From positions 86,157-150,156 of the IMG/VR virus record IMGVR_UViG_3300031813_000004: 64,000 bases of DNA; one strand, 5' to 3'. This document shows, piece by piece, positions 522 through 58,145 of the stretch (position 1 is its first letter; the number at the start of each line of letters is the position of its first letter). The position numbers and the translations under genes were made by a program. Under the pieces are notes generated by a model. That model worked only from the letters and a program-made list of their open reading frames with translations. It had not been told where the DNA came from and did no database searches. Source of the stretch: a virus (lineage: Duplodnaviria > Caudoviricetes).

Positions 522-1394
522 CTATATTTTATTTTGTAATTTATTAATTTTCTTAATAATATTCTGTTTACATTTATTAGGATCTTTGACTGAGTTACAG
601 GAACTCATTCCTGATTTTAATTGACCTATTTGAGATTGTATAGCAGCCCTTTTAAAATTATACATGCATTGTTTCTTTTCTGGTCCTGAGAATTTAGAAC
701 AAGACCTAGCTGCTTTACTTAATTTATCTCTATATATTTTAGTAGCTGCTAATGCAATTAAAGATACAATAACAGCAGCACCTAATCCTTTTCCTAATGG
801 AGTTCTAACAAATCTATTAACAGATGCAACTCCATTCATCGCAGCAGTTCTTCCTGCTTTTAATGAAGCCATTACTTTTCCTGGAGCTGCTTTAATTTGC
901 CCAGGTATATCTTTAACAGTTTGTACATAACCTTTAGCTGGTCTCATCATATGAGCAGTTATAGCCATATTACCAACTTTAGCTGCTGCACCTAAAGCTT
1001 TACTTCCAGCACTTTCTTCATCATCTTCATAATCATTATATCTACCACGTTCTACAATATAACTCATTGTAGAAGCTGAAGATGATAACCCAATTTCATT
1101 TAAGGATCCAACTTCAACAATACATTGTTTAATCTCTTTATCAATATTTTTATCTAAATTAATAGATTCTTTTAATGATTTAAAAAGTTTTATTTGATTA
1201 TCATGATTATATCTAGTTTCAGGAAATTTACCTTCCTGTAAAATAGATATTATTTCATAATCTGAAGCCTCAATCATGATATATTTTTCAGCTAGAGATT
1301 TATCAGTTTTATTTAAATTAGATTCATTATGGATCATTTCATTAATTGTTTGTCTAGCAAATAAAAGAAATAAAACTGAGTCTTTAATATTCAT
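522..1394 (-). CDS. Hydrophobic-helix + 4-Cys late protein family member, type A (EASDYE N-terminus)
   Basis: ORF track; EASDYE motif, hydrophobic helix, C-x10-C...C-x8-C tail shared with neighbours. Confidence 0.85.
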   Translation of the reverse strand: MNIKDSVLFLLFARQTINEMIHNESNLNKTDKSLAEKYIMIEASDYEIISILQEGKFPETRYNHDNQIKLFKSLKESINLDKNIDKEIKQCIVEVGSLNEIGLSSSASTMSYIVERGRYNDYEDDEESAGSKALGAAAKVGNMAITAHMMRPAKGYVQTVKDIPGQIKAAPGKVMASLKAGRTAAMNGVASVNRFVRTPLGKGLGAAVIVSLIALAATKIYRDKLSKAARSCSKFSGPEKKQCMYNFKRAAIQSQIGQLKSGMSSCNSVKDPNKCKQNIIKKINKLQNKI

Positions 1395-1398
1395 TATA

Positions 1399-2205
1399 TT
1401 ACCTCATCTCACTGAGTTTATTTTCTAATTTAAGAATTTTAACTTTAATTACATTTTCACATTTTTGTTTATTTTCTTTACTAGAACAAGTAATCATACC
1501 TTGTCTTAAAGTTTGAATTTGTTTTTGAATCGCATTAATCTTAAATTTTTTAATACAATTTATTTTTTCCGGACCTTTAAATTTGCCACATTGTTTTGAT
1601 ACTTCAGCAAAATTCTTTTCATAAACAACTATTGCTGCATATATTACTAAAGCCGCAGTTAAAGCTGCACCTATTTTTTTTCCATTTGGTGTTTTAAGAT
1701 ATGACCCTAAATTAGATAAACCTTTTTGCGCATATAACTTACCTGTAGTATATAAATCTTTTCCTGCTGTAGATGCAGCTCCACCTACAATACCACCAGC
1801 AACCATAAGTCCATATTTCTTTTTATAATTTTCAGGTTTTTTATCTTTCTTTTCATTTAAAAATATTTTTAATAAATCATTTGATGATTCTTTTAAAACA
1901 TGTACTTCTTGTATAACACTTACTAATGTTTCTTTTCCTAAATATTTATATAAGTTATCAAAGTCTTCTATAATTAATGATTTAAATGATTTTAAAAGTT
2001 CTACTTCCTTCAAGGAGTTATACTTTTCTATAGGATAATTTCCGGTTAAAGCCAGAGTTAGAAGTTCATAATCGGATGCCTCAGAAAGTATATAGTCGAT
2101 GGACAATTTTTTAGCTTGGTCATTTAAATGACTCGTATTGAGAAACTCTGAGAGTGTTCTCCTTAATGCTAAAAAGAATGTCAAAGAATTTTTAATATTT
2201 TTCAT
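1399..2205 (-). CDS. Hydrophobic-helix + 4-Cys late protein family member, type A
   Basis: Start moved to MKNIKNSLTFF (2205) by alignment to paralogs and upstream AAGGAG; EASDYE motif and 4-Cys tail. Confidence 0.85.
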   Translation of the reverse strand: MKNIKNSLTFFLALRRTLSEFLNTSHLNDQAKKLSIDYILSEASDYELLTLALTGNYPIEKYNSLKEVELLKSFKSLIIEDFDNLYKYLGKETLVSVIQEVHVLKESSNDLLKIFLNEKKDKKPENYKKKYGLMVAGGIVGGAASTAGKDLYTTGKLYAQKGLSNLGSYLKTPNGKKIGAALTAALVIYAAIVVYEKNFAEVSKQCGKFKGPEKINCIKKFKINAIQKQIQTLRQGMITCSSKENKQKCENVIKVKILKLENKLSEMR

Positions 2206-2239
2206 CGAAAAGTATAACTCCTTGAATCTGTATAATTTA

Positions 2240-3262
2240 TTAAATTTTAGCTTGAAGCTTAGAAATCTTAGCTTGAATAGAAGCTTTGCATTTAGCAGGA
2301 TCCTTGGTAGAAGCACAACCAGAGAACCCAGCCCTTAACTGAGCAATCTGAGCCTGGATTGCAGCCTTCTTAAACTTGTTAAGGCAGTCTTGTCTTTCTG
2401 GACCAGTCTTACCTTTGCAAGCTTTTGCACCTGCACTGAATTTTGCTTTATAAACTTTATAAGCTGCATATGCAACAAGCGAAGCTAAAAGAGCGCCACC
2501 AATATAACGACCTTTTTTAGAATTAGCGAATGCAACAACTGCAGATGCACCATTCTGAGCAGCAGCTTTACCACTAGCAACAGTGTTACCTGCTTTCATT
2601 CTTAATTTTTCACCACTAACAGTTGCAGAAGAAACATTATGTGCAGTTTCTGGATTTCTAGTACTAGCAGTTCCAAAAACACCTTTACCAAAATCTTTAG
2701 CTTTACCAGGTGCACTTCTAACAGCAGATGCTGCAGATTTAGCTTTACCAGGAATACTTCTAATAGCACCACCAACATGAGCAGGTGCATTCTTAACTGC
2801 TTTACCAGCATAACCAGCTCTAGCTTTCATTCTATTACCAAAGTTAGCAGCAGTGTGCCCTTTTAATTTTCCAGCTGGAACTAAGTCATACGGAAGTTCT
2901 AACAGGAAATTAGCAATAGGAGCTGCCGAAGAAAGACCATATTCACTAAGAGCAGTAATATCACTAACAAAGTCAGTGGTAACATCTTCAGAAAGATATT
3001 GGCTGAAAGTGTCAAAGTTTTCAATAATGCAAGTTCTAACATCTTCAAAAAGAGCAGCTTCTTTTTCACTATTGTACTTCTCATCAGGAAGTTCACCTTC
3101 AACAGCAAGACTCATAACTTCATAATCTGAAGCCTCATTCATAATGAAGTTTTTGTTTTGGATTTTTTCAATCTTAGTAGACTCTTCATTCAGGTCAACG
3201 AATTCACACATAGTCTTTCTAAGTGTGGTTAAGAAAATTAAAGAATCAGATACATTACTCAT
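2240..3262 (-). CDS. Hydrophobic-helix + 4-Cys late protein family member, type A, long Ala/Gly/Lys linker
   Basis: EASDYE motif; GGALLASLVAYAAY helix; CKGKTGPERQDC...CASTKDPAKC; strong RBS AGGAGG. Confidence 0.85.
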   Translation of the reverse strand: MSNVSDSLIFLTTLRKTMCEFVDLNEESTKIEKIQNKNFIMNEASDYEVMSLAVEGELPDEKYNSEKEAALFEDVRTCIIENFDTFSQYLSEDVTTDFVSDITALSEYGLSSAAPIANFLLELPYDLVPAGKLKGHTAANFGNRMKARAGYAGKAVKNAPAHVGGAIRSIPGKAKSAASAVRSAPGKAKDFGKGVFGTASTRNPETAHNVSSATVSGEKLRMKAGNTVASGKAAAQNGASAVVAFANSKKGRYIGGALLASLVAYAAYKVYKAKFSAGAKACKGKTGPERQDCLNKFKKAAIQAQIAQLRAGFSGCASTKDPAKCKASIQAKISKLQAKI

Positions 3263-3321
3263 ATTGTTATTCCTCCTAGGTTTATTTGCTTCACTCCATT
3301 TATGTATGTGAAGGTTTAATG

Positions 3322-4044
3322 TTATTTTGGTTCTTGATAATTTTGAACAGTATTCTTAGCAGCAGCAAACAGTGAAGCATAATTTTGGCAATTTGCTAAC
3401 ACCCAAGGTTCATGCCAAATATAGTCAACATTGAATTCAATTTCAACATCTAATTTTGCAACAGATTCAACATCTCCATGATATAAATCTTGTGGATCTT
3501 TAGTCGGGAAAACACCATCATAACATGCAAAATATTCTACTCTTTGTGCATCAGGAGCAGTAGTCCAGTAATATAAAGTACCTGCATAATCTTTCTTAGT
3601 GTATCCACCACCATCTGTAGTAGCAGCTAAATTAGTAGTACCGGTTCTGTAGTCACGAATCATTTTAACCCAACCATGCATAATATCAAGGATAGGTTCA
3701 CTCCAGAATTCAATGAATTTTAATGATACAGAGTTCTGGTAATCAATGTTACCAGGTACTGCCCATTTAACTCCACCAAGCCCAGTATATTCAACTTTCT
3801 GTAAAGTACCACCGGGAGGAGTTACAGAAGTACATGTTGCAGCTAATACATTTTGAATGTCTGCTGTAGATGAAAGACCACTATTTCCCAATTTACTGTA
3901 ATTTACTATCTGTGGGGGTAGATAAGAAAACCAGCAAAAGTGATACCCAGAGAGGTATGGTTCCGCAGTTCCTACATTAGTTCCACCGAATTTTCTTGTT
4001 AATATATTTTCTTGTAATGCTGCAAACGAAGTCTTCATACCCAT
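3322..4044 (-). CDS. Tail tube protein (T4 gp19-like)
   Basis: TSVTPPGGT..KVEY.GLGGVKWAVPGNIDY.NSVSL.F.E and YDGVFP...VEIEFNVDY pattern typical of myovirus tubes; size 240 aa. Confidence 0.7.
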   Translation of the reverse strand: MGMKTSFAALQENILTRKFGGTNVGTAEPYLSGYHFCWFSYLPPQIVNYSKLGNSGLSSTADIQNVLAATCTSVTPPGGTLQKVEYTGLGGVKWAVPGNIDYQNSVSLKFIEFWSEPILDIMHGWVKMIRDYRTGTTNLAATTDGGGYTKKDYAGTLYYWTTAPDAQRVEYFACYDGVFPTKDPQDLYHGDVESVAKLDVEIEFNVDYIWHEPWVLANCQNYASLFAAAKNTVQNYQEPK

Positions 4045-4045
4045 C

Positions 4046-5575
4046 TTATTTATCCTCCAATAACTTATTTATCATACTAAATTTAATACTTCCACAATCC
4101 CATATAATAAAGTATCCTTCTTGTCTTCTAATAATATGTTCGGGTATTTCTTTAGGATCTAGTTCTGTTTTTCGTAATGAAAATCTATGTATTCTTTTAT
4201 ATCCTTTATTATACCAATAATTAATAGAAGTATTATGTTTAAATTCAAAACCTAATTTATAATATAAATCACCATCAGACCATCTTCTGTCAGCATAACT
4301 AAATATTTCAGACCAAATATAATTTTTTTTAAAATAACTAAGAAATTTACTAGCTATACCAGGAATTTGATAATTAGAATTAGAACAAAATCTATTTAAT
4401 TCCCATATATCATCTTTATGTTTAGATCCTTTAGAAATATTACCATGACCAAAAGTCATAACTGAAATCAATTCTTCATTATAAAAAGCTCCTAATTTAA
4501 TAACAGAGCTATCTTTACCTTGAATATGAAATTTATCCAAAAATTCATTTTTAATTGTTGGAGAAATTTCTTTAATAATACATTTTCTTGCATAAATTTT
4601 TAATTGATTATTCGATTTAAATATTTGTCTTAATCTACTTTTAACAATATCTTTTTTAAATAACCATTCATCTTCAAATATATGTATTAATCTAATATTT
4701 TGATCATTACAACTAATAGTTTTATCTAAATGATAATGAGGATTTTTAGATGGATCTGAATCAGTTTCATCCGAGTGTCTATAAAAACCATCAAATTCTA
4801 TAGCTATATTTTTATCTGGGATATAAATATCAATTTCTCTAGGAGATATAATTTTTCTGTTTCTCCTAATAATATTTGATATACCCAATTCAGTTAAAAA
4901 TTCAACAATTTCATCTTCAGGTTTGGATTGAGTATTACTAGGAAAACAAATTGGACATTTTTTCCATTGTTGAACATAATTCCAAATTGATTTAAATTCA
5001 TTATTACAAATTAAACATCTAAAAGTAGCTTCTTCAGTTGCATCTTTATATTCAGAAATCATTTCTAAATTTTTATTTTTTAATATATCAAATACAACAT
5101 TATTTATATGATTTTTTTGCCTAGTATCATGTCTTTTTTTTATAGCACTTTCAGTTTGCCCAGGATTATAAACACCATTTTTTTCAAAGCATTTATCTCT
5201 AGATTTTTGTTTGATTTTATCTGTTGCATTAGCATTTTCATTACCATGTCTTTCTAAATTAGTTTTAGCTCTTTTTTGTTTAACTAAATTCTCATCACAT
5301 TTAGATCTAGTTTCTTTAAACTTAACAATTCTTTCTTCACTACCTTGTGAACATTTTGCTCCACAATGTTTTTGATAACCTAAATAAACACCAAGAAAAG
5401 GTGTTGGTTCATTGCATAAAGGGCATATCTCTTCATCAGGTTTCTTTAAATATTTATCATAATAATCTTTAGCACTTATTTTATGAGCTAAAGTAACATG
5501 ACAAAAACCTTTAGTTGACTTTATTTCTTTACCACAAATTTCACATTTAATATTCAATTCGTTAGACCCGTTCAT
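4046..5575 (-). CDS. Free-standing Hef-like / PD-(D/E)xK homing endonuclease with Zn fingers
   Basis: CxxC motifs; EIDIYIPDKNIAIEFDG catalytic motif; IHIFEDEW; C-terminal ELNRFC...SYADRRWSDG.LY..LGF...WDCG domain common in large-phage endonucleases. Confidence 0.75.
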   Translation of the reverse strand: MNGSNELNIKCEICGKEIKSTKGFCHVTLAHKISAKDYYDKYLKKPDEEICPLCNEPTPFLGVYLGYQKHCGAKCSQGSEERIVKFKETRSKCDENLVKQKRAKTNLERHGNENANATDKIKQKSRDKCFEKNGVYNPGQTESAIKKRHDTRQKNHINNVVFDILKNKNLEMISEYKDATEEATFRCLICNNEFKSIWNYVQQWKKCPICFPSNTQSKPEDEIVEFLTELGISNIIRRNRKIISPREIDIYIPDKNIAIEFDGFYRHSDETDSDPSKNPHYHLDKTISCNDQNIRLIHIFEDEWLFKKDIVKSRLRQIFKSNNQLKIYARKCIIKEISPTIKNEFLDKFHIQGKDSSVIKLGAFYNEELISVMTFGHGNISKGSKHKDDIWELNRFCSNSNYQIPGIASKFLSYFKKNYIWSEIFSYADRRWSDGDLYYKLGFEFKHNTSINYWYNKGYKRIHRFSLRKTELDPKEIPEHIIRRQEGYFIIWDCGSIKFSMINKLLEDK

Positions 5576-5612
5576 TTAAATATCCTTTTTATAAAAATAA
5601 ACCTCATTTTAA

Positions 5613-5622
5613 TTTTGTTCTT
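5613..5622 (-). promoter_or_regulatory. Putative late promoter motif AAGAACAAAA(TT)
   Basis: Same motif upstream of five minus-strand genes/operons. Confidence 0.55.
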
Positions 5623-5666
5623 AATTATCTTAAAGATGACTAAGAATTTAAGGATTCATTCCCTTG

Positions 5667-5682
5667 CTATATATATTAATTA
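5667..5682 (+). promoter_or_regulatory. Putative early promoter motif CTATATATATTAATTA
   Basis: Identical 16-mer at the head of all three plus-strand blocks. Confidence 0.7.
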
Positions 5683-5724
5683 ATAAGATATTAATTCAAT
5701 TAAATTTTATAAGGGGGATTTAAT

Positions 5725-17337: not shown

Positions 17338-17347
17338 ATTTGTTCTT
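17338..17347 (-). promoter_or_regulatory. Putative late promoter motif AAGAACAAAT
   Basis: Upstream of baseplate/sheath operon. Confidence 0.55.
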
Positions 17348-17394
17348 ATTTATTTCTAATATCAGTTCTAAATTTTTAAGAATTCTTTATTATG

Positions 17395-17410
17395 CTATAT
17401 ATATTAATTA
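17395..17410 (+). promoter_or_regulatory. Putative early promoter motif CTATATATATTAATTA
   Basis: Identical to 5667 and 35539. Confidence 0.7.
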
Positions 17411-17471
17411 CTAAGAAGAAGTATTTTGGGTGTTTTTAGAATACCCACAAATTACAAAAGGAGATATGAAA

Positions 17472-35502: not shown

Positions 35503-35513
35503 ATTTTGTTCTT
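35503..35513 (-). promoter_or_regulatory. Putative late promoter motif AAGAACAAAAT
   Basis: Head of baseplate/tail fibre operon. Confidence 0.55.
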
Positions 35514-35538
35514 TATTTATTAAGGATACTAGTAAGTT

Positions 35539-35554
35539 CTATATATATTAATTA
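35539..35554 (+). promoter_or_regulatory. Putative early promoter motif CTATATATATTAATTA
   Basis: Identical to 5667 and 17395. Confidence 0.7.
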
Positions 35555-35571
35555 TTAGAAAAGAACTTTAT

Positions 35572-48124: not shown

Positions 48125-48301
48125 AATATTTATGAATACTCAAATGAAGTTATTTATCTTAGCTGTCTTGTTAATAATATTAGCATTAGTTCTTTCACTA
48201 AGTTTACCCAATACATTAATTCAAATAATACCTGTTATAATAATCTTACCAGTTTTATATATACAATATTTATTAGTGACAGGTAAATAAAAGGATTAAA
48301 T

Positions 48302-48481
48302 ATGATATGGTTATTAGTAGTTATAACATATTCTGGGTCATTAATATCACAACCTTTTGTAACTAAATCTGAATGCGAATAAGTTAGATCATGGATAGCC
48401 GTAAATGGAGGGAATAATAATACTGCATCAACTAAATCAAATCTTTGTATAGAGATTAAAAATCCATATGTTAAACATTGA
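48302..48481 (+). pseudogene. Small protein interrupted by in-frame TAA (48380-48382)
   Basis: MIWLLVVITYSG...FVTKSECE*VRSWI...NLCIEIK; fills the gap up to the terminator. Confidence 0.55.
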
Positions 48482-48490
48482 GTTTTATAC

Positions 48491-48528
48491 AAAAGACTAC
48501 TAGTTCTATTCTAGTAGTCTTTTTTTTG
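48491..48528. terminator. Bidirectional intrinsic terminator
   Basis: AAAAGACTACTAG / CTAGTAGTCTTTT plus T run. Confidence 0.85.
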
Positions 48529-48540
48529 TCAACTTTATAT

Positions 48541-48571
48541 AAATCTATACGAAAACCTATAGGGATATCAT
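48541..48571 (+). repeat. Dispersed element copy A
   Basis: AAATCTATACG AAAAC CTATAGGG ATAT. Confidence 0.8.
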
Positions 48572-48579
48572 GATTATAT

Positions 48580-48846
48580 TTAACCTTTATATGATCTAAC
48601 AATACCTCTTTCCTTTTTGTTATTTCCAAAAGATTCAAAACCACCTATACCAGCTGCTGAAGATACCCCAACTCCACCACTTATTTGCTCTTCTATTTCA
48701 TCATCTTCATCTAAGCAATTACAATGACTACAAGGTTTTTTACAATTACATTCTTTTTTAATTTTACATGTACATTTAGTATGTCCACAAACTGAACATT
48801 CACTTAGATATTGAAGGTAATCTTCGAGTATATTTTTTTTGGCCAT
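48580..48846 (-). CDS. Metallothionein-like Cys-rich small protein with YLQYLSE leader
   Basis: CSVCGHTKCTC...CNCKKPCSHCNC. Confidence 0.55.
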   Translation of the reverse strand: MAKKNILEDYLQYLSECSVCGHTKCTCKIKKECNCKKPCSHCNCLDEDDEIEEQISGGVGVSSAAGIGGFESFGNNKKERGIVRSYKG

Positions 48847-48861
48847 TTTATATAATATCTC

Positions 48862-49233
48862 CTATAATATTCCTTTCTCTATTAATAACTCTCTAACTTT
48901 ACCCCAATCTACAAATGGTCTTTCACCAGTTAATCCTTTACATAATGGAATTCCTAAACCAATGTCATCAATTAATAATTTACAATATAATTTAGGGCTA
49001 GTATTCCATGTCTTTTGCATAGGATTTTTATTAATACCATATAAAGGAATTTTATTATTTTCAAACCATTCTACAGCTTCTTCTAATTCTCTACCTTGTC
49101 TTATTGTCCATAATATTAATAAATGTTCTTTATCAACTAATTCTTTTAATACTGGTATTGCTCCAATATCTCTTCCTATTTCTGGATATTCATGTACACA
49201 ACAAGTTCCATCAAAGTCAATTCCTATAATCAT
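48862..49233 (-). CDS. HAD-superfamily phosphatase (BT0820-like)
   Basis: IGIDFDGT, ILWT.R, SPK.Y...IDD. Confidence 0.85.
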   Translation of the reverse strand: MIIGIDFDGTCCVHEYPEIGRDIGAIPVLKELVDKEHLLILWTIRQGRELEEAVEWFENNKIPLYGINKNPMQKTWNTSPKLYCKLLIDDIGLGIPLCKGLTGERPFVDWGKVRELLIEKGIL

Positions 49234-49234
49234 T

Positions 49235-49516
49235 TTATTTATCCTTTTTTGTAATGTATTCTAAATATAATTCAATTGATTCATGTTTCCATTGTGGTTT
49301 AACTTTAGGAGGAAGTGGTGATTGATGATTAAATCCTCTTCTTATCATTTCATCACTAAGAATTTTATGCCACATAATTATTCTTTTTTCAAACTCTTTA
49401 TTATTATGTTTCAAAGCCAATGTATAAAGTTGATGACAACGATGATGCATTGAGATAATATCTGAGTTTTCATTATTTCTTACATCACTAGGATAATGAA
49501 TATCTGACAACTCCAT
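49235..49516 (-). CDS. Hypothetical protein
   Basis: H.RCHQLY...WH.IL..EM.RRG.NH.SPL. Confidence 0.6.
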   Translation of the reverse strand: MELSDIHYPSDVRNNENSDIISMHHRCHQLYTLALKHNNKEFEKRIIMWHKILSDEMIRRGFNHQSPLPPKVKPQWKHESIELYLEYITKKDK

Positions 49517-49563
49517 TGATTATTCTCCTAATACTAACTCCAAATTTGACTTATACTAGTACT

Positions 49564-50094
49564 TTATATATGTAGGTATATCCTAATATTAAATCCACAA
49601 TGTTTATAAAATTCAGTACAACTAATCCCATATTTAGGTTTATCATAATATTTATATTTAAAAGTTCTAGATGAATTATCTAATTCCATATTATGTTTAA
49701 TTTTGTTTATAGCATCTATATCATTTTTGAATGGACCATGAATTCCTCTAAGTTTATAATAAGAATTCTCAAAATAAAAAATTGAATCTTTATCATTATA
49801 TAATAAGAATGTATGAGAAGATTTATCATGTTGTATACAAAAAATAGTTCTATATTCAATATTCCAAGATTCAAAATAAATTCTTTAAAATTCAACTTGA
49901 CCCCAACATACACCTATTTTATTCTTATAAACTTGTATAGGATTTTGTAAGATATATTTATTATAAAACTCTTTATTCATATCATCATTGAATACAACAT
50001 TTTTTCTTATTTTATTATCTAGTCCTAACCATCCATAATCTATATTCTTAGACATATAATCTAATAATAATTCCGGAGTCTTTATTTTTATCAT
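49564..50094 (-). pseudogene. Transglutaminase/papain-fold-like protein interrupted by in-frame TAA (49885-49887)
   Basis: ...GVCWGQVEF*RIYFE...SHTFLLY...FYFENSY..LRGIHGPF...YGISCTEFYKHC: frame continues about 106 codons past the stop. Confidence 0.75.
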
Positions 50095-50098
50095 AGTA

Positions 50099-50971
50099 TT
50101 AATTCCATAATTTCTTTTGAAGTCTATTTATTTTATCTTGTATTTTTTGTCTACATAATTGAGGTTTACTAGATTTATTACATTGATTTATACCATTTCT
50201 TAAATTATTTATTTGAGCTTGTATTGCATCCTTTTTAAATTTCTCCATACATTGATCTTTATCATAACCTTTTTTACCTTTACAATATTGAGCAGCTTTA
50301 GTGAAATATGCTTTATATATTCTATATGCTGCATATAATATAGCAGCTACAGCAATAGTGATAGCTACACCTTTAGCTATTTTTTTACTAGCATTTTTTA
50401 AATCTTGTCTATTCTGAGCTGTTTTAGCATTAACCTGATCATCCCATTCAGCATCATTTTGTTTAACTGCTTTTTCTATCTCTTCACGATCTTTTTTAAA
50501 TCTAGCTGTTATATCAGCTTCTCTCTTTAAACGATCTTCTTCAAATTTTCCTATAGCTTCTATTTCTCTTTTATATTGATCTCTAACTTTTTCTATCTCT
50601 TCACGATCTTTTTTAAATCTAGCTGTTATATCAGCTTCTCTCTTTAAACGATCTTCTTCAAATTTTCCTATAGCTTCTATTTCTCTTTTATATTGATCTC
50701 TAACTTTTTCTGCTTTATCATAATCAGTTAATTTTTTAGATAGACTATCATCTAACTCATCCTCATACACCATTACCTTCTTATCAGAGATATTAAGATT
50801 AGATTCAAAGAATAATGATATAGTTTGTTTATATGTTAAACTCTTTATCCATTCTCTGAATATTTTTCTTTCATCTCTAGATACATTTTCTTTAAGATAA
50901 TTATTGTTATATGATTCATCTATTAATTGTTGTTTAAGTGTTATTTCTAGATCTCTTTTATTTAATTCCAT
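50099..50971 (-). CDS. Hydrophobic-helix + 4-Cys late protein family member, type B
   Basis: Paralog of 1..506; CKGKKGYDKDQC...CNKSSKPQLC. Confidence 0.85.
   Translation of the reverse strand: MELNKRDLEITLKQQLIDESYNNNYLKENVSRDERKIFREWIKSLTYKQTISLFFESNLNISDKKVMVYEDELDDSLSKKLTDYDKAEKVRDQYKREIEAIGKFEEDRLKREADITARFKKDREEIEKVRDQYKREIEAIGKFEEDRLKREADITARFKKDREEIEKAVKQNDAEWDDQVNAKTAQNRQDLKNASKKIAKGVAITIAVAAILYAAYRIYKAYFTKAAQYCKGKKGYDKDQCMEKFKKDAIQAQINNLRNGINQCNKSSKPQLCRQKIQDKINRLQKKLWN
50470..50711. repeat. Perfect 117-bp in-frame tandem duplication
   Basis: Units start at 50470 and 50587; encodes a 39-aa unit twice. Confidence 0.9.
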
Positions 50972-50991
50972 TTGTAAGTCTCCAATATAAA

Positions 50992-51687
50992 TTATTTCAT
51001 TGATTGAGCTTTTTTAAGTTGTTTAATATATTTTAATCTTTTTCCTTCGTATTGTTTTATAAATGATGCAATATGTTTTGTACATTTTTCAGGTTTCTTT
51101 GTACTATGACATTTTGGGCCTTCTGACTGTAAATATCTTATAACTTCATTAATAGAATTTATATTACATTGAGCTAAACACATTTTTTTAGATTTCTTTG
51201 TTCTAATTTGATTATTTTCAAGTGTTCTACATTTAATAACACATGGTTTACGATCTTTTCTATATTTATAAACCAATGCTAAACTAACTATTCTTACAAT
51301 TTGTGTTCCTGCTAAACCACCTATCATTATTCCAGGACCCATCCCAACTCCACCAAAATGAGCTCCAATTGCGCCACCAGTTAATGCACCACTAACTCCA
51401 CCTACTAATCCACCTAAATAAAATGCTGCTCCATATTGTATTATTTTTTGTATATGATCTGATATTAATTTTTGTTTTAATTCTTGTGCATATTGTTCAT
51501 TTATATTAATGAATTTATTATCAAAATATAAAGACATAGATTGTTCATATGTTAAAGATTTAATCCATTCTTTGAATTTTAACCTTTCTTGTAATGAAAC
51601 ACTTTAATTTAAATACTGATTTTTATTAGCATCTTGAATCATTATTTGTTTTATAGATAATTCAAGAATATTTTTGTCTAGTTCCAT
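50992..51687 (-). pseudogene. Type B family member with in-frame TAA (51604-51606); downstream ATG 51537 could give a truncated product
   Basis: MELDKNILELSIKQ...QYLN*SVSLQERLKFKEWIKSLTYEQSMSLYF aligns with MELNKRDLEITLKQ...NYLKENVSRDERKIFREWIKSLTYKQTISLFF; glycine-zipper hydrophobic segment; Cys tail. Confidence 0.8.
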
Positions 51688-51703
51688 TATATGTGATCTC
51701 CAA

Positions 51704-52459
51704 TTATAATATTTTTGAAATTACCCAAAAATCTGCTGCAAGATCTGGATTCGTTAAATATGCAAAAGGTATTTTTGAATATCCAGCCATTCCCCAATTA
51801 GGACCCCATGAATTTCTAGAGATAAACATTTGTGATAGAGTGTCATAACCCACGATAAGTTGTGAGTGACCTCCTAAACAATTTTCATTTAAACTGGGCA
51901 TTTGAACAATACCAGTTTGTGCAGTATAGTCACCTTCAAATGAATCATATACAGTAATTCCACACACAACTGGATAACCTTGAGCTAAAGCTGACATTAT
52001 ATTATTAGCATTTGTATTATCAATATTTTGATATGATATTGCAATAAAATTAGTTCCATCTGCATAACATTCTAAAGATGGTTGTTGAGTGAATACATCT
52101 ACATTATAAGGCCATAGATTTTCATGACAACAACCGTATTTTGAAATAGCATTAATACCATCTCTTATTGTTGAACCATTATCTGAATCAACTGAATTTT
52201 CAATTAATCTTTCATTATAATATATAAACAATCTTGAAGGGGTAATATATTTACCATCTTGTTTAACTATATCGTAATCAATAGCTGCTGCAATAGCTTG
52301 AGCAGAACATGACCCTAAGGACCCCTGATCATATACTGGTGGCATATAAAAACGTAAATCAACTGAATCTGGAAGTTTAACAGGTGCAACCAATCTAGTA
52401 AATTTATGATCTCTAAAGTCTGGGAGTGAAGGACGCCATCCATATTTTCTAATTGTCAT
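51704..52459 (-). CDS. Papain-family (C1A) cysteine peptidase
   Basis: DQGSLGSC, SRLFIYYNER, GGH...VGY, RNSWG..WG..GY. Confidence 0.92.
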   Translation of the reverse strand: MTIRKYGWRPSLPDFRDHKFTRLVAPVKLPDSVDLRFYMPPVYDQGSLGSCSAQAIAAAIDYDIVKQDGKYITPSRLFIYYNERLIENSVDSDNGSTIRDGINAISKYGCCHENLWPYNVDVFTQQPSLECYADGTNFIAISYQNIDNTNANNIMSALAQGYPVVCGITVYDSFEGDYTAQTGIVQMPSLNENCLGGHSQLIVGYDTLSQMFISRNSWGPNWGMAGYSKIPFAYLTNPDLAADFWVISKIL

Positions 52460-52471
52460 TTTAAATCTCCT

Positions 52472-52720
52472 TTATATACACTCTGTCCATATACCTTTTA
52501 TTAAATATCCATGCCATCTTTCATTACTATATTGAATTAATATAGATGGACTTACAGTTATTGTACCATCTTCATGTTCTATAATATCATGTCTTAATAA
52601 CGATCCAGTATAAAATTTGAAGGGTCTACATAACCATACTCCACTAATACCCTGTCCATATTCACCTTCTTTTAACAATAATTCATTGTCTTCATTTAGA
52701 TATACCCTTGTACCTTTCAT
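52472..52720 (-). CDS. DUF6527-like protein
   Basis: EHEDGTITVSPSIL....WHGYL..G.W. Confidence 0.6.
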   Translation of the reverse strand: MKGTRVYLNEDNELLLKEGEYGQGISGVWLCRPFKFYTGSLLRHDIIEHEDGTITVSPSILIQYSNERWHGYLIKGIWTECI

Positions 52721-52740
52721 ACAAATAACTCCTTTATGAA

Positions 52741-52875
52741 AAATCTATTCGATTTTATTCGTTTTTATATAGGGTTATTATAGACATAAAAATTAGTTCT
52801 AAGATGTCTTAACTTAAATATTTATAAAACGAATAAAATAATTCTATGAAACCCTATAGGAAATGACATAGAATT
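52741..52875. repeat. Dispersed element copies B (+) and C (-)
   Basis: B: AAATCTATTCG..TTATTCG TTTTT ATATAGGG TTATTATAGA; C reverse complement: AATTCTATGTC ATTTC CTATAGGG TTTCATAGAAT. Confidence 0.75.
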
Positions 52876-52912
52876 ATCAATTATTACCATTATAGATCGG
52901 TTCTATCTCAAT

Positions 52913-53254
52913 CTATTTCTTAACCGAATCAGTAGAAAAATTATAAATAATTTTAGCGTTGGTATAAGCAAGAGAATAATTAGCATCGAATTCTGCTCCC
53001 ACATCTAACTTTAAATTTGGGTATATTTCAGTCTCTACACCCATTTTATGATTGACAACATTTTTACCATATTCAAATTGTATATCTGAATAAGGGTTGA
53101 ATATACCAATCTTTTGATTTAAATGTAAATCACTTACAAATGTATTATCACCATTAACAGTTCTTTCATGACTTGTTGAGATAGATCCCTCAATAGCCAT
53201 AGCTGAAGTTGAATAGAATGATATTAAGATAAAGGTTAAGATAATCTTTTTCAT
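52913..53254 (-). CDS. Secreted beta-strand-rich protein (outer-membrane-like)
   Basis: Signal peptide ending AMA; alternating beta strands; IIYNF near C-terminus. Confidence 0.5.
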   Translation of the reverse strand: MKKIILTFILISFYSTSAMAIEGSISTSHERTVNGDNTFVSDLHLNQKIGIFNPYSDIQFEYGKNVVNHKMGVETEIYPNLKLDVGAEFDANYSLAYTNAKIIYNFSTDSVKK

Positions 53255-53457
53255 TGTTTACAATCCTCAGTTTCAACATAATCCTTTTGTAATGATTGTT
53301 CCAAACATCTTAAAATATGAGCCTCATTTTTCCAATCTTTAAATATATGTTCAGATGAATAAACATCAAATTGATTATCATGTTTAGGTTTATCATGATG
53401 AACACAACCCATTAATGATATTAAAATAAATGTTATTAGAACCTTTCTCATATACAT
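53251..53457 (-). CDS. Small lipoprotein
   Basis: Lipobox LMGC. Confidence 0.6.
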   Translation of the reverse strand: MYMRKVLITFILISLMGCVHHDKPKHDNQFDVYSSEHIFKDWKNEAHILRCLEQSLQKDYVETEDCKQ

Positions 53458-53471
53458 ATCTCCATAATTTT

Positions 53472-53597
53472 AAATCTATTAAACCCTATAGGTTTTCGTA
53501 TAAAATATAAATATCCTTTCTTAAGACATTATTAAGCATTATGTAAGATATTTATTGTGTAAATCTATACGTTTTTCTATAGGGTTATAATAGAATT
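53472..53597. repeat. Dispersed element copies D (-) and E (+)
   Basis: D reverse complement: ATTTTATACG AAAAC CTATAGGG TTTAATAGATTT; E: AAATCTATACG TTTTT CTATAGGG TTATAATAGAATT. Confidence 0.8.
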
Positions 53598-53628
53598 ATT
53601 TTTTGTTTAGTTAATATGAATTGAAAAT

Positions 53629-54114
53629 TTATATGTAAAATAATGCGGTTGGTGGTTTTTTAACATTTTTAATTTGTTTGGTTAATACTAAAATTCTATT
53701 TTGTATTTTTTGTTTACATGATTGAGGATTAATATCATTACGGCATTTACCAATCGAATTCTTTAAAAATATAGCTTCTGCTTTAAGTGCATCAATTCTA
53801 AACTTCTTTCTACATTCTTTTCCTTCTCTTCCACTCATGCCTCCACAAGCTTTACCAGCTTTAGAATAACGATTTTTGAATATTGTCCCCATTGCATATC
53901 CAATTAAACCACCTGCAATCATAACTCCAGCTTCTAGAGCAGTGGTTTCATCTAATAAATTCAAATATTCACTAACTGTATCACAAGTTTGAGGATTATC
54001 AACTCTAATTCTTTCTCTAGGTTCAACAATCTTTCCTCTCATAATGTCTTTAATATTGTTTAATTCAAACTCAATTTGTTCAATATCTGTAGCTTCTTTA
54101 AGAATCAATTTCAT
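53629..54114 (-). CDS. Short member of hydrophobic-helix + 4-Cys family
   Basis: YSKAGKACGGMSGREGKEC..KF...CRNDINPQSCKQKIQ. Confidence 0.8.
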   Translation of the reverse strand: MKLILKEATDIEQIEFELNNIKDIMRGKIVEPRERIRVDNPQTCDTVSEYLNLLDETTALEAGVMIAGGLIGYAMGTIFKNRYSKAGKACGGMSGREGKECRKKFRIDALKAEAIFLKNSIGKCRNDINPQSCKQKIQNRILVLTKQIKNVKKPPTALFYI

Positions 54115-54138
54115 TTTATTTAATCTCCCTTTATAAGT

Positions 54139-54285
54139 TTATTGTTTATTACAACCCTCGCATTCCTTGCTCTTTTTACAATGTCCATATTGGTTTAAAA
54201 TAGGACATGATAATCTTGAACCTTTTTCTTTTTCTTTTTTTGGATACAATGGAGTCCTATCTTCTTTAATTGGAATCTCCCACAT
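54139..54285 (-). CDS. Small basic Cys-rich protein
   Basis: Manual translation MWEIPIKEDRTP...SCPILNQYGHCKKSKECEGCNKQ; RBS AAGGAG. Confidence 0.5.
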   Translation of the reverse strand: MWEIPIKEDRTPLYPKKEKEKGSRLSCPILNQYGHCKKSKECEGCNKQ

Positions 54286-54302
54286 AAATTACTCCTTTTA
54301 TT

Positions 54303-54313
54303 ATTTTGTTCTT
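54303..54313 (-). promoter_or_regulatory. Putative late promoter motif AAGAACAAAAT
   Basis: Just upstream of RBS, downstream of a hairpin. Confidence 0.5.
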
Positions 54314-54320
54314 ACGGAAG

Positions 54321-54369
54321 AATGAGGACCAATGATTTTATTATAATATTATTCATTAGTCCTCATTTT
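54321..54369. terminator. Stem-loop / terminator
   Basis: AATGAGGAC.AATGA / TCATT.GTCCTCATT. Confidence 0.55.
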
Positions 54370-54405
54370 TATTTATAGCAACGATCTAAAAAGTTCTTTT
54401 TAAAT

Positions 54406-54582
54406 AAATCTATTCGATTTCCTATAGGGATATAGAATTATTTTTATACCTTTGTTATCCCTCAAAAGGTTTTGTAAATTATTTTCTTAAATGTAATCTT
54501 AGTAACTTATTTAATCTATAGATCCTTGCTAGAGTTGTGATAACAGTAATCTATACGATATTCTATAGGGTTTTAATAGAAT
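54406..54582 (+). repeat. Dispersed element copies F and G
   Basis: F: AAATCTATTCG ATTTC CTATAGGG ATATAGAATT; G (54548): AATCTATACG ATATT CTATAGGG TTTTAATAGAAT. Confidence 0.8.
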
Positions 54583-54605
54583 ATATAATATCTACCATAA
54601 CAGTA

Positions 54606-54780
54606 ACTATTACCACTATGAATCCATCTAAATGCCTATCATTACCACTATCATTACCACTATGAATCCATCTAAATGCCTATGAATTCTTATTAAATGC
54701 TATCATCACCACTATGAATCCATCTATAATAACTTATTATCTATCATTACACTTATGATAATCTCTATGAATCCATCTAC
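54606..54780. repeat. Iteron-like degenerate tandem repeat tract
   Basis: CTATGAATCCATCTA at 54616, 54660, 54712, 54765 plus ACCACTAT(C/G)A subunits. Confidence 0.85.
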
Positions 54781-54788
54781 AAAATTTA

Positions 54789-55103
54789 TTATTTATCTTC
54801 ACCTTCCTTTACTGTTGAACCCTTCTCATTAGTGTCTTTGTCATGACTTGGTTCTATATTTCCTACACTTTTAACTGGGCTATCATCAACTACATTAGTA
54901 TTAACAACTCCTTTATTATCATTTTGAACCAATGCAGCTAGTGAAGGGACTGACAATATGGTTAAAAATACAGCATGTAATGAATAAAAATATTGCTTTA
55001 CTTCTGGGTCTTTGGGAACGATGCTTAACCCACATGACATGGCTATAAACTCACCAATAAACAAACTTAATAAACCGAATTGAATTACTTTTGACTCACT
55101 CAT
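54789..55103 (-). CDS. Two-TM membrane protein, holin candidate
   Basis: Two hydrophobic helices, charged C-tail, downstream of lysin. Confidence 0.4.
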   Translation of the reverse strand: MSESKVIQFGLLSLFIGEFIAMSCGLSIVPKDPEVKQYFYSLHAVFLTILSVPSLAALVQNDNKGVVNTNVVDDSPVKSVGNIEPSHDKDTNEKGSTVKEGEDK

Positions 55104-55185
55104 ATAAATATCTCCTACTTAATCTATTATATTTATTACTTGATTATATTTTTCTTATTACTTTATCTATTATATTTTTTTAATC

Positions 55186-55365
55186 TTAAGCTTTGGGTGT
55201 TATTTGTTTTAATGACGCTGTTAATGCGTCTAATTGTTTTAACTTATCTTCAATTGTTAAACTACTTGAATTGAATGAAGTGACTAAGTTATTAATTAAG
55301 GTTGCAGTTGTTGGTTCTAATGTTGCAACTAAATTGATAATAGCTATAATTTCTTCTGGTGTCAT
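55186..55365 (-). CDS. Small helical protein
   Basis: Manual translation MTPEEIIAIINLVATLEP...KQITPKA; RBS GGAGG. Confidence 0.6.
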   Translation of the reverse strand: MTPEEIIAIINLVATLEPTTATLINNLVTSFNSSSLTIEDKLKQLDALTASLKQITPKA

Positions 55366-56576: not shown

Positions 56577-57003
56577 CTAATTAAGCTTTAATATCTTATT
56601 TTTCTTCCTTGTTTCTAGTCGTTTTCGTTGTATTTCTTTTTTCTCTTCTTCTGGTGATCTATTAATTTGAGTGACTGATATTTTTACCCTAGTTTCTTCT
56701 GATACTGGAATTTTATTAAGATTTTCTTTCAACCAAGCATATTTCTTACTTCCATATATTTTAAAATTAGACATCATAAATGCTGCAATACATAAACTTC
56801 TATTTCCTCTATGAATTTTAGCTAATAATTGATGAACTATAAAATGTTCTCTAGCTGTTAAATTTATTAAATTAGATTTTGAATTATTACCATCCAAACA
56901 CCTTGGAATAATATGATGTTTTTTCTACATAGCAGTTAGATTTACTTATAACATGAATTCTACGATATTCAATTAATTGATCATATATTCTTTGGTAATT
57001 CAT
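56577..57003 (-). pseudogene. HNH homing endonuclease with +1 frameshift
   Basis: MNYQRIYDQLIE...YVEK / HHIIPRCLDG...NLINLTAREHFIVHQLL; extra A in run at 56919-56924; NUMOD3-like SEETRVKIS. Confidence 0.8.
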
Positions 57004-58100: not shown

Positions 58101-58130
58101 TTCTTAATTCTCCTTTATTGTTACTTTATT

Positions 58131-58140
58131 ATTTGTTCTT
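58131..58140 (-). promoter_or_regulatory. Putative late promoter motif AAGAACAAAT
   Basis: Immediately upstream of lysin RBS. Confidence 0.5.
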
Positions 58141-58145
58141 TTAAT

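What the first reader, a model, noticed from the sequence alone, without database searches (positions are those of the whole stretch)
48541..54582. Dispersed ~35-bp element that brackets gene cassettes as direct repeats
Seven intergenic copies of AATCTATwCG-N5-CTATAGGG-W(2-5)-ATAGA(A)T occur only in this 6-kb stretch: A+ 48541, B+ 52741, C- 52841, D- 53472, E+ 53561, F+ 54406, G+ 54548. The element has inverted ends, a near-palindromic (C)CTATAGG core, a CG kept in 6 of 7 copies of a CG-poor genome, and a fixed 5-nt spacer. The orientations are ordered: A+..B+ flank 48.6-52.7 kb, C-..D- flank the two envelope genes, and E+..F+ flank a 4-Cys family gene. Adjacent cassettes meet as inverted pairs about 55 bp apart. 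Inference: sites for cassette capture or excision by a site-specific recombinase, or binding sites for an initiator, partition or packaging protein near an origin. No recombinase gene is in the window.
Basis: partly seen in the sequence, partly recalled or inferred. Interest (0 to 1): 0.8.

Follow-up and report, generated by a model that had tools for sequence, protein, structure and literature searches.

The report
Conserved junction element between phage gene cassettes
An uncultured, very AT-rich giant phage has seven copies of a conserved ~45-bp DNA element confined to one fast-changing 6-kb block of accessory genes; it looks like a protein-recognition signal at cassette junctions that also aids gene shuffling, but its reader protein and exact job are unknown.

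Summary
A profile of the copies finds exactly these seven sites in the whole 150-kb contig. All are intergenic, and conservation is block-wise: TCTAT, WCG, a fixed 5-nt variable spacer, then CTATAGGG.

Diverged copies occur in the closest relative (G001, four copies) and in a much more distant phage contig (L013, one copy). The element is therefore under selection.

New findings:
- There are two subtypes, and the basic unit is a tandem "type I, ~130 nt, type II" junction module.
- The module lies in either orientation relative to the genes (5 sense, 6 antisense).
- The copies bracketing a cassette are always of different subtype, so they are not duplicates made by site-specific insertion.
- No tyrosine or serine recombinase, Y1 transposase or T7-type RNA polymerase was found in the contig or three relatives.
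- Stable hairpins form in only 2 of 12 copies.
- The region is hypervariable between relatives. A secreted-protein gene with its adjacent element sits elsewhere in G001.

Best reading (about 35%): a double-stranded-DNA recognition site for a regulator or polymerase factor, which also gives dispersed homology for recombination. This is analogous to the PeSL cassettes of T4-type phages. The core matches the T7 promoter at 16 of 23 positions, and that is unexplained. The scan had not noted this element on other DNA.

The parts
48541..48582 (+). Copy A, type II (TATACG left arm). It lies 5 nt after the stop of the Cys-rich 88-aa gene and just before the bidirectional terminator. Its right arm is of the G001 kind.
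   Evidence: It is absent from the orthologous gap in G001.
52741..52790 (+). Copy B, type I (TATTCG), with an 11-nt internal duplication of the left arm. It lies about 20 nt upstream of the start of the DUF6527-like gene and is antisense to the genes.
52836..52882 (-). Copy C, a degenerate type I (CG lost). It lies 36 nt after the stop of the secreted 113-aa protein gene, in sense orientation. It is the only window copy with a significant hairpin.
   Evidence: z -4.8
52823..52840 (-). Partial extra left arm (a TATTCG half-copy) next to C.
   Evidence: it pairs with B's duplicated arm in the fold
53467..53511 (-). Copy D, type II. It lies about 15-20 nt upstream of the ribosome-binding site of the lipoprotein gene, in sense orientation. 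It shares 19 of 19 core nucleotides with A.
   Evidence: (I15)
53558..53602 (+). Copy E, type II. It lies 32 nt after the stop of the 161-aa four-Cys family gene and is antisense. With D it forms a divergent inverted pair whose similarity extends about 12 nt beyond the element.
54403..54444 (+). Copy F, type I, the first member of the intact tandem I->II junction module.
54544..54588 (+). Copy G, type II, the second member of the tandem module, 141 nt after F. It abuts the iteron-like array.
53629..54285 (-). Cassette 1: a 48-aa Cys-containing gene (54139-54285) and a 161-aa TM plus four-Cys family gene (53629-54114).
52913..53457 (-). Cassette 2: a small lipoprotein (53251-53451/57) and a secreted 113-aa protein (52913-53254).
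   Evidence: The homologue in G001 sits at another genome position.
48580..52720 (-). Cassette 3: DUF6527-like gene, papain-family protease, two four-Cys paralogues, stop-interrupted ORFs, a 93-aa ORF, an HAD-like phosphatase and a Cys-rich 88-aa protein.
54303..54375 (-). A hairpin (54320-54375) followed by the phage's AGAACAAA promoter-like motif (54303-54313), just upstream of cassette 1.
48491..48523 (.). Bidirectional intrinsic terminator that closes the leftward block, next to copy A.
54609..54726 (.). Iteron-like array (15-mer CTATGAATCCATCTA, four copies) to the right of G. A functional link to the element is not shown.

Best explanation
The copies are selected, sequence-specific DNA elements about 45 bp long. 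The core is WCG, five variable bases, then CYATAGG(G), flanked by AT-rich arms. They come in two subtypes, and the basic unit is a two-element junction module: type I, about 130 nt, then type II.

The modules sit between accessory ('moron') cassettes in the hypervariable part of an uncultured jumbo myophage that encodes its own multisubunit RNA polymerases.

I propose that a protein reads them as double-stranded DNA. That protein would be a regulator or polymerase-specificity factor acting on the accessory cassettes. Because the copies are dispersed 45-190-bp homologies, the phage's general recombination system would use them to insert, delete, duplicate and invert cassettes. Functionally this resembles the PeSL 'mobile regulatory cassettes' of T4-type phages and needs no dedicated site-specific recombinase.

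Shown: the elements exist; they are confined to this region and to intergenic DNA; conservation is block-wise; they are conserved across phages whose proteins are far more diverged; both orientations occur; they are linked to a gene that occupies different loci in two phages.

Inferred: protein binding, a regulatory role, and a role in recombination.
For: - Seven copies and no others in 150 kb, all intergenic.
- The recognition blocks are about 94% identical, while the fixed-length 5-nt spacer varies freely. This is the signature of protein contacts about one helical turn apart, not of neutral decay.
- The element is kept in G001/G002, whose terminase is 77-79% identical and most proteins 40-70%.
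- It is almost unchanged in L013, whose four-Cys protein is only about 30% identical.
- The tandem type I -> type II module recurs three times: F-G here and two units in G001, in opposite orientations relative to the genes.
- Orientation relative to transcription is 5 sense and 6 antisense. This argues against a purely directional signal and for duplex recognition.
- The region is hypervariable between G000 and G001.
- The secreted 113-aa protein has a homologue in G001 inside a 1.15-kb insertion at another locus. In both phages it is followed by a sense type I copy.
- Copy A is missing at the orthologous site of G001.
- PeSLs provide a documented precedent for conserved intergenic motifs that drive cassette shuffling by homologous recombination (PMC2839356; PMC4122927).
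Against: - No binding protein is identified. No HTH, RHH or other regulator domain was found in the neighbouring ORFs.
- No transcription or binding data exist.
- Unlike PeSLs, the elements have no sigma-70-type promoter (and inspection) and mostly no stable stem-loop. They are also not co-oriented with the genes.
- Break points between G000 and G001 do not fall cleanly at the elements.
- One independent assembly shows no rearranged variant.
- Only two or three phage lineages carry the element, so the comparative sample is small.
Confidence: 0.35

Rival explanations
1. The elements are promoters, or promoter-like initiation sites, for a phage RNA polymerase. This could be a minor 'middle' class for one of the two multisubunit enzymes, or a class for an undetected T7-type single-subunit enzyme. 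The antisense copies would make antisense RNAs or prime replication, for example the tandem F and G next to the iterons.
For: - Type II copies match the T7 class III promoter at 16 of 23 positions. The ATACGA block and the CTATAGGG block have identical spacing (T7 sequence from PMC3592457).
- In L013, in D and in G001 copy 3, the element points at a ribosome-binding site 30-75 nt downstream.
- Jumbo-phage promoters are short, phage-specific and hard to predict, and phiKZ late promoters are defined by TATG at the start site (PMC7598289).
- The other two motif classes of this phage are also conserved across relatives.
Against: - Six of 11 copies point against the flanking genes. Both other promoter-like motifs of this phage are co-oriented with genes.
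- There are only 7 copies in 150 kb, all within 6 kb.
- No PF00940 match was found in this contig, in G001, G004 or the complete G005. That search had no positive control, and half of this genome is missing.
- Positions -10 to -6, which are decisive for T7-type specificity (my knowledge of T7 RNAP), are the variable spacer here.
Confidence: 0.2
2. The element is a selfish miniature mobile element. Either the 45-bp element or the ~190-bp I-x-II unit inserts into intergenic DNA in either orientation and spreads horizontally between phages, mobilised in trans, for example by a homing-type nuclease.
For: - Both orientations occur, with presence/absence differences at orthologous sites.
- The element is more conserved than the host genomes' proteins.
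- The two G001 units are recent duplicates at distant loci in opposite orientation.
- A minimal HNH gene abuts one G001 unit, and an HNH/NUMOD-like fragment lies 2 kb from G.
Against: - No transposase was found (Y1_Tnp, integrase and resolvase searches negative).
- No target-site duplications were seen.
- The terminal inverted repeats are weak and are not kept in G001.
- The variable spacer with conserved blocks indicates old copies under selection, not recent bursts.
- Copy number is very low.
Confidence: 0.15
3. The elements are sites for a dedicated site-specific recombinase (integron-, shufflon- or invertase-like) that captures, excises or inverts the cassettes.
For: - Each cassette is bracketed by co-oriented copies, and adjacent cassettes meet as inverted pairs.
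- The central CCTATAGG is a perfect palindrome in four copies.
- The B+/C- (I/I) and D-/E+ (II/II) junctions are what an inversion between two I->II modules would produce (my inference).
Against: - No recombinase family was detected in the contig or three relatives.
- Bracketing copies are of different subtype.
- The orientation pattern has a chance probability of 1/8.
- Spacer lengths do not fit a simple inversion: 77 + 85 nt against 2 x 133 nt.
- An independent assembly has the same arrangement.
- The G001 insertion is not bounded by elements.
Confidence: 0.08
4. The elements are binding sites for a replication initiator, partition protein or packaging protein at or near an origin.
Against: - Five of seven copies are 1-6 kb away from the iterons, between ordinary genes.
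- G001 modules have no iterons nearby.
- The terminase gene is 60 kb away.
- GC skew here simply follows coding strand.
Confidence: 0.08
5. The elements are RNA-level hairpins in the polycistronic transcript, serving as processing, stability or translational control sites.
For: - The inverted arms allow a hairpin in either orientation.
- C and L013 fold well (z -4.8 and -4.6), and the E/D pair gives -34.6 kcal/mol.
- Several copies lie 6-11 nt from a ribosome-binding site.
Against: - Ten of 12 single copies fold no better than shuffles.
- There is no compensatory change between arms in G001.
- Conserved loop blocks would read differently in the two orientations.
- No Rfam family matches.
Confidence: 0.05
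6. The copies are functionless leftovers of local duplications of intergenic DNA.
For: The region contains duplications and decaying genes: a 117-bp perfect tandem repeat, stop-interrupted ORFs and paralogous four-Cys genes.
Against: - Conservation is block-wise with a free spacer.
- The core is retained in G001 and L013 although other intergenic DNA is unalignable.
Confidence: 0.05

Closest known systems
PeSLs (promoter-early stem-loops), the mobile regulatory cassettes of T4-type phages (Arbiol, Comeau and Krisch 2010, PMC2839356; Comeau et al. 2014, PMC4122927)
   Same: Both are short conserved intergenic motifs concentrated in hyperplastic regions of a large myovirus. Both flank small accessory or ORFan genes. 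Related phages differ by cassette insertions, deletions and replacements nearby. No dedicated recombinase is needed.
   Different: PeSLs are strong sigma-70 promoters plus G/C-rich terminator stem-loops, co-oriented with the genes, with about 50 copies per genome. Here there is no sigma-70 promoter and mostly no stable hairpin. There are two subtypes in a tandem module, both orientations occur, and only 7 copies were found. Recombination at the elements has not been demonstrated.
T7-group single-subunit RNA polymerase promoters (class III consensus, as listed in PMC3592457)
   Same: They match at 16 of 23 positions, including ATACGA and CTATAGGG at identical spacing, and both have a run of G at the would-be start.
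   Different: No T7-type polymerase gene was found. The -10 to -6 specificity positions are variable here. More than half of the copies point against the genes. The elements are clustered in 6 kb instead of being spread over the genome.
Integron attC sites and shufflon/invertase sites
   Same: Repeated imperfectly palindromic sites lie at cassette borders, and some are in inverted pairs.
   Different: No integrase or invertase was found, there is no attC-type architecture, and orientation is mixed. The bracketing sites are of different subtype, and no alternative arrangements were seen.
REP/BIME elements of enterobacteria and MITEs
   Same: They are elements of about 35-50 bp with inverted ends, found in intergenic DNA in both orientations, as subtypes arranged in pairs.
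   Different: The hairpins are weak, there is no RAYT-type transposase, copy number is very low, and the tandem rather than alternating arrangement is the conserved unit.
Jumbo-phage promoters for virion and non-virion multisubunit RNAPs (review PMC7598289)
   Same: The phage belongs to the group with two multisubunit RNAPs. Its other two motif classes behave like the described early and late classes: an AT-rich 'early' motif and an AACA-containing motif.
   Different: The element matches neither class, is rare, and is orientation-independent.

Membership tests
PeSL (T4-type mobile regulatory cassette) | Contains a strong sigma-70-type early promoter (-35/-10) | tested here: not met
   The consensus scan shows no excess of promoter-like sites (82 found, 83.7 expected). 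Inspection finds a TAGAAT-like hexamer in some right arms but no usable -35 at 16-18 nt.
PeSL (T4-type mobile regulatory cassette) | Contains a stable stem-loop acting as a terminator | tested here: not met
   Only C and L013 fold better than shuffles (z about -4.7). The other ten copies give z between -2.0 and +0.6.
PeSL (T4-type mobile regulatory cassette) | Intergenic, concentrated in hyperplastic regions next to ORFans | tested here: met
   All 7 copies are intergenic within a 6-kb block that corresponds to a much shorter, different gene set in G001.
PeSL (T4-type mobile regulatory cassette) | Indels between close relatives are bounded by the motif, and mini-circles occur | tested here: inconclusive
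   A gene-plus-element unit has been relocated and copy A shows presence/absence. However, the G001 insertion ends do not lie at elements. Circles cannot be tested without reads.
Integron / site-specific cassette system | A cognate tyrosine or serine recombinase is encoded | tested here: not met
   PF00589 and PF00239 are absent from G000, G001, G004 and the complete G005, and the controls were positive. Caveat: about half of this genome is missing.
Integron / site-specific cassette system | Sites are uniform in orientation and of one kind at both cassette ends | tested here: not met
   Orientation is mixed, and the bracketing copies are type II on one side and type I on the other.
T7-type promoter | Sequence match to the 23-bp consensus | tested here: inconclusive
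   16 of 23 positions match with the same block spacing, but the specificity positions -10 to -6 are variable.
T7-type promoter | A single-subunit RNAP gene (Pfam RNA_pol, PF00940) is in the genome | tested here: not met
   No match in G000, G001, G004 or G005. The control genomes contain no such gene, so sensitivity is unverified, and the genome is incomplete.
T7-type promoter | Co-oriented with downstream genes | tested here: not met
   5 copies are sense and 6 antisense.
REP/RAYT or IS200/IS605-derived mini-elements | A Y1 transposase is present and hairpin-forming palindromes occur | tested here: not met
   PF01797 is absent and the controls were positive. The hairpins are weak.
Rfam RNA families | Match to any curated covariance model | tested here: not met
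   There are only two sub-threshold chance hits in 48300-55200, neither at an element.

The most novel reading that the evidence does not exclude
The elements are genuine T7-promoter-type initiation sites in a jumbo phage that otherwise relies on multisubunit RNA polymerases. They would be read by a still-unseen single-subunit polymerase, or by a convergently evolved specificity factor, and used in either orientation to make antisense or priming transcripts at cassette junctions and at an iteron origin. Equally novel would be a recombinase-free, orientation-independent 'junction module' system for moving accessory cassettes between phages.
Probability: 0.12. Interest if true: 0.8.

Novelty: new variant of a known kind. 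Interest (0 to 1): 0.5.

Why it matters
Jumbo phages with their own RNA polymerases have poorly understood gene control, and it is not known how their large accessory regions are assembled. This conserved two-part junction module travels with accessory genes, works in either orientation and is better conserved than the proteins around it. That makes it a concrete handle on both questions. It gives a defined bait for finding the protein that reads it. It gives defined sites at which to look for cassette exchange in read data. Its unexplained near-identity to the T7 promoter core can be tested directly by 5'-end mapping.

Tried and rejected
- **Public collections.** Exact-pattern scans of IMG/VR, the metagenome collection and the species genomes gave only chance hits, apart from L013. 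A looser type I pattern in IMG/VR gave 70 loci. All were coding or tRNA-like chance matches except G001/G002.
- **Relatives through region genes.** The papain protease gave only distant contigs without the element. The four-Cys protein has no close relatives by word search. A profile search shows a large family of 1,665 representatives, but the contigs fetched lack the element.
- **RNA structure.** Rejected as the general explanation.
- **Junction spacers.** The B-C and D-E junction regions (elements plus spacer) are not clearly homologous beyond the elements: only 74-76% column identity in AT-rich DNA, in either relative orientation.
- **Inversion model.** It gives the right order of subtypes, but spacer lengths do not add up. 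I keep it only as a possibility.
- **Palindrome avoidance or methylation.** CTATAG is not depleted.
- **ATAG as a general start-site motif upstream of genes.** Only a weak strand bias, confounded by composition.
- **Dispersed repeats in G005.** They turned out to be conserved parts of multiple homing-endonuclease genes, not an analogue.
- **G005 'terminal repeat'.** It is a 127-bp assembly overlap, so it tells nothing about genome ends.
- **Nearby ORFs.** No DNA-binding domain was found.

Full report
**What the sequence is.** The window is the right-hand 64 kb of a 150,156-bp IMG/VR virus contig (27.6% GC, CheckV completeness 48%). It belongs to a myovirus with a tail sheath, tRNA-repair enzymes and an NAD ligase. 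It also has two beta-like subunits and a beta'-like subunit of multisubunit RNA polymerase. It is therefore one of the jumbo phages that carry their own RNAPs (review PMC7598289). Its homologues cover only about 145 kb of a complete 312-kb relative, so roughly half of the genome is missing. All credible genes from 48.5 to 64 kb are on the minus strand. They include a GH108 endolysin, a papain-family protease, small secreted and lipoproteins, and three extra paralogues of a large 'TM helix plus four-Cys' family.

**Check of the observation.**
- The seven copies are at the stated places and orientations.
- The 21-nt core pattern gives 7 matches against 0.54 expected.
- A profile HMM finds these seven and nothing else in 150 kb.
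- All six exact CTATAGGG octamers of the contig are here.
- All copies are intergenic, in a genome that is about 93% coding.
- Conservation is block-wise. TCTAT, WCG and CTATAGGG are about 94% identical, whereas the five bases between CG and the octamer vary freely but never change in number.
- B has an 11-nt internal duplication, C has lost the CG, and A has a different right arm.

**The element in other phages.** The strict pattern is essentially absent from IMG/VR, the metagenome collection and the species genomes. There is one exception. An 8-kb metagenome contig, L013, has a near-consensus copy directly upstream of a ribosome-binding site. L013 also carries a four-Cys family gene only about 30% identical to those here, and the same AT-rich early-promoter-like motif as this phage.

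The closest relative found through the terminase is G001 (143 kb, 77% identity). It is collinear with this contig. It carries four diverged copies arranged as two tandem pairs. The core common to all 12 copies is WCG, N5, CYATAGG. About 0.3 chance matches are expected per 150 kb from base composition. An element this well kept between phages whose proteins are 30-70% identical is under selection, or has moved horizontally.

**New anatomy.**
- The copies fall into two subtypes by their left arm. Type I (TATTCG) comprises B, F, degenerate C, G001 copies 1 and 2, and L013. Type II (TATACG or GTACG) comprises A, D, E, G, and G001 copies 0 and 3.
- A tandem 'type I, about 130 nt, type II' unit occurs three times. 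It is F-G here and two units in G001, one sense and one antisense to the flanking genes.
- In the window, every cassette is flanked by type II on one side and type I on the other, counted in the element's own direction (A..B, D..C, E..F).
- The bracketing 'direct repeats' are therefore halves of neighbouring junction modules, not duplicated insertion sites. The most similar pairs are A with D (19 of 19 nt), F with B, and C with F.
- The B/C (I/I, convergent) and D/E (II/II, divergent) junctions have the order an inversion between two modules would give. The spacer lengths do not add up, so I treat this only as a possibility.

**Orientation and structure.** Relative to transcription, 5 copies are sense and 6 antisense. 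The phage's two other motif classes are always co-oriented with genes. Only C and L013 form hairpins better than shuffled sequence. The arms do not co-vary in G001, and no Rfam family matches. A directional transcription signal and an RNA structure are therefore both poor general explanations. Recognition of duplex DNA by a protein fits best.

**Link to genome plasticity.**
- The stretch between the fibre-like gene and the Cys-rich gene holds about 22 genes here and 5 in G001. Only the papain protease and the Cys-rich protein are shared.
- G001 has a 1.15-kb insertion between two structural genes that are 16 nt apart here. The insertion holds a homologue (28% identity over the full length) of the secreted 113-aa protein of cassette 2, a membrane protein, a I->II module and a 58-aa gene. 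The secreted-protein gene is followed by a sense type I copy in both phages.
- Copy A is absent from the orthologous stop-codon-to-terminator gap in G001.
- However, the G001 insertion is not bounded by elements, and the gene differences within cassette 3 are not either.
- An independent Logan assembly of 50682-54638 is identical, with no alternative arrangement.

**Enzymes.** No Phage_integrase, Resolvase or Y1 transposase match exists in this contig, G001, G004 or the complete G005, and the control genomes were positive. No T7-type RNA polymerase was found. That search had no positive control, and half of the genome is unseen.

**Resemblance to the T7 promoter.** Type II copies match the T7 class III promoter (sequence taken from PMC3592457) at 16 of 23 positions, with both conserved blocks at the same spacing. 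This is striking. Three things argue against a simple T7-type promoter: the orientation data, the restriction to 6 kb, and the variability of the positions that set T7-type specificity.

**Conclusion.** The finding is a real, selected, lineage-specific DNA element. I rank the explanations as follows:
1. A protein-recognition junction module of the accessory region that doubles as a substrate for homologous recombination. It is functionally akin to PeSLs (PMC2839356) but structurally different (0.35).
2. A phage-polymerase promoter class, including antisense or priming use (0.20).
3. A selfish miniature mobile element (0.15).
4. Dedicated site-specific recombination sites (0.08).
5. Initiator, partition or packaging sites (0.08).
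6. RNA hairpins (0.05).
7. Neutral leftovers (0.05).

The reader protein is unknown. Read-level junction searches, 5'-end mapping and a pull-down would decide among these.

Noticed in passing
window 5640-5690, 17370-17420, 35510-35560 (+); also genome 7400-7450, 9740-9790, 70760-70800; L013 6980-7005: A bipartite promoter-like motif (TTAAGRATTC, about 13 nt, GCTATATATATTAATTA) occurs six times in the contig, always pointing at a gene. Its AT-rich half is also present in the distant contig L013. It fits the 'early promoter' description for jumbo phages with virion RNAPs.
   Followed up: partly
window 58130-58145, 54303-54313, 35505-35515, 17338-17348, 5612-5622 (all -): A second promoter-like motif (TTWAGAACAAAWW) lies 10-40 nt upstream of ribosome-binding sites, including the endolysin and the tail-sheath operon. 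It recurs in G001 (at least 8 intergenic copies) and in G005 (GGGAACAAAATA, 10 copies). It recalls the AACA-containing AR9 late promoter.
   Followed up: partly
G001 (L060) 2545-4452 versus window 51704-52459: The papain-family protease is 251 aa here but 635 aa in G001. The extra sequence starts right after the catalytic-Cys motif with an intein-like 'C-F-H-P-D-T-K-I-S-L-L-D-G' stretch.
   Followed up: no
window 54590-54790: An iteron-like array holds four exact 15-mers with 44-53-nt spacing on a strongly G-poor strand. It lies in the longest non-coding stretch, next to F and G. Another note flags it as a candidate origin.
   Followed up: partly
window 50470-50703: A perfect 117-bp tandem duplication (39 codons) lies inside the 290-aa four-Cys family gene. 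A short-read assembly also breaks here.
   Followed up: no
window 49716-50094 and 51538-51703: Two ORFs are interrupted by single in-frame stops and look like decaying or recoded accessory genes within cassette 3.
   Followed up: no
window 56577-56897 (-) and G001 5248-5505: An HNH/NUMOD-like endonuclease fragment lies 2 kb right of copy G. In G001 a minimal 85-aa HNH gene ends inside a type II copy.
   Followed up: no
window 55104-55192: An 18-nt direct repeat (AATATAATAGATWAAGTA, two copies) lies upstream of the 104-aa gene. It shares the AATAGAT arm motif that sits just before the ribosome-binding sites of the genes after B and D.
   Followed up: no
window 53629-54114, 50099-51537, 522-3262; L013 4625-5008: The 'TM helix plus four-Cys helical C-terminus' family is very large in public data: 1,665 representative clusters at E<=1e-3. 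In relatives it sits in baseplate/tail modules. It has no Pfam family.
   Followed up: partly
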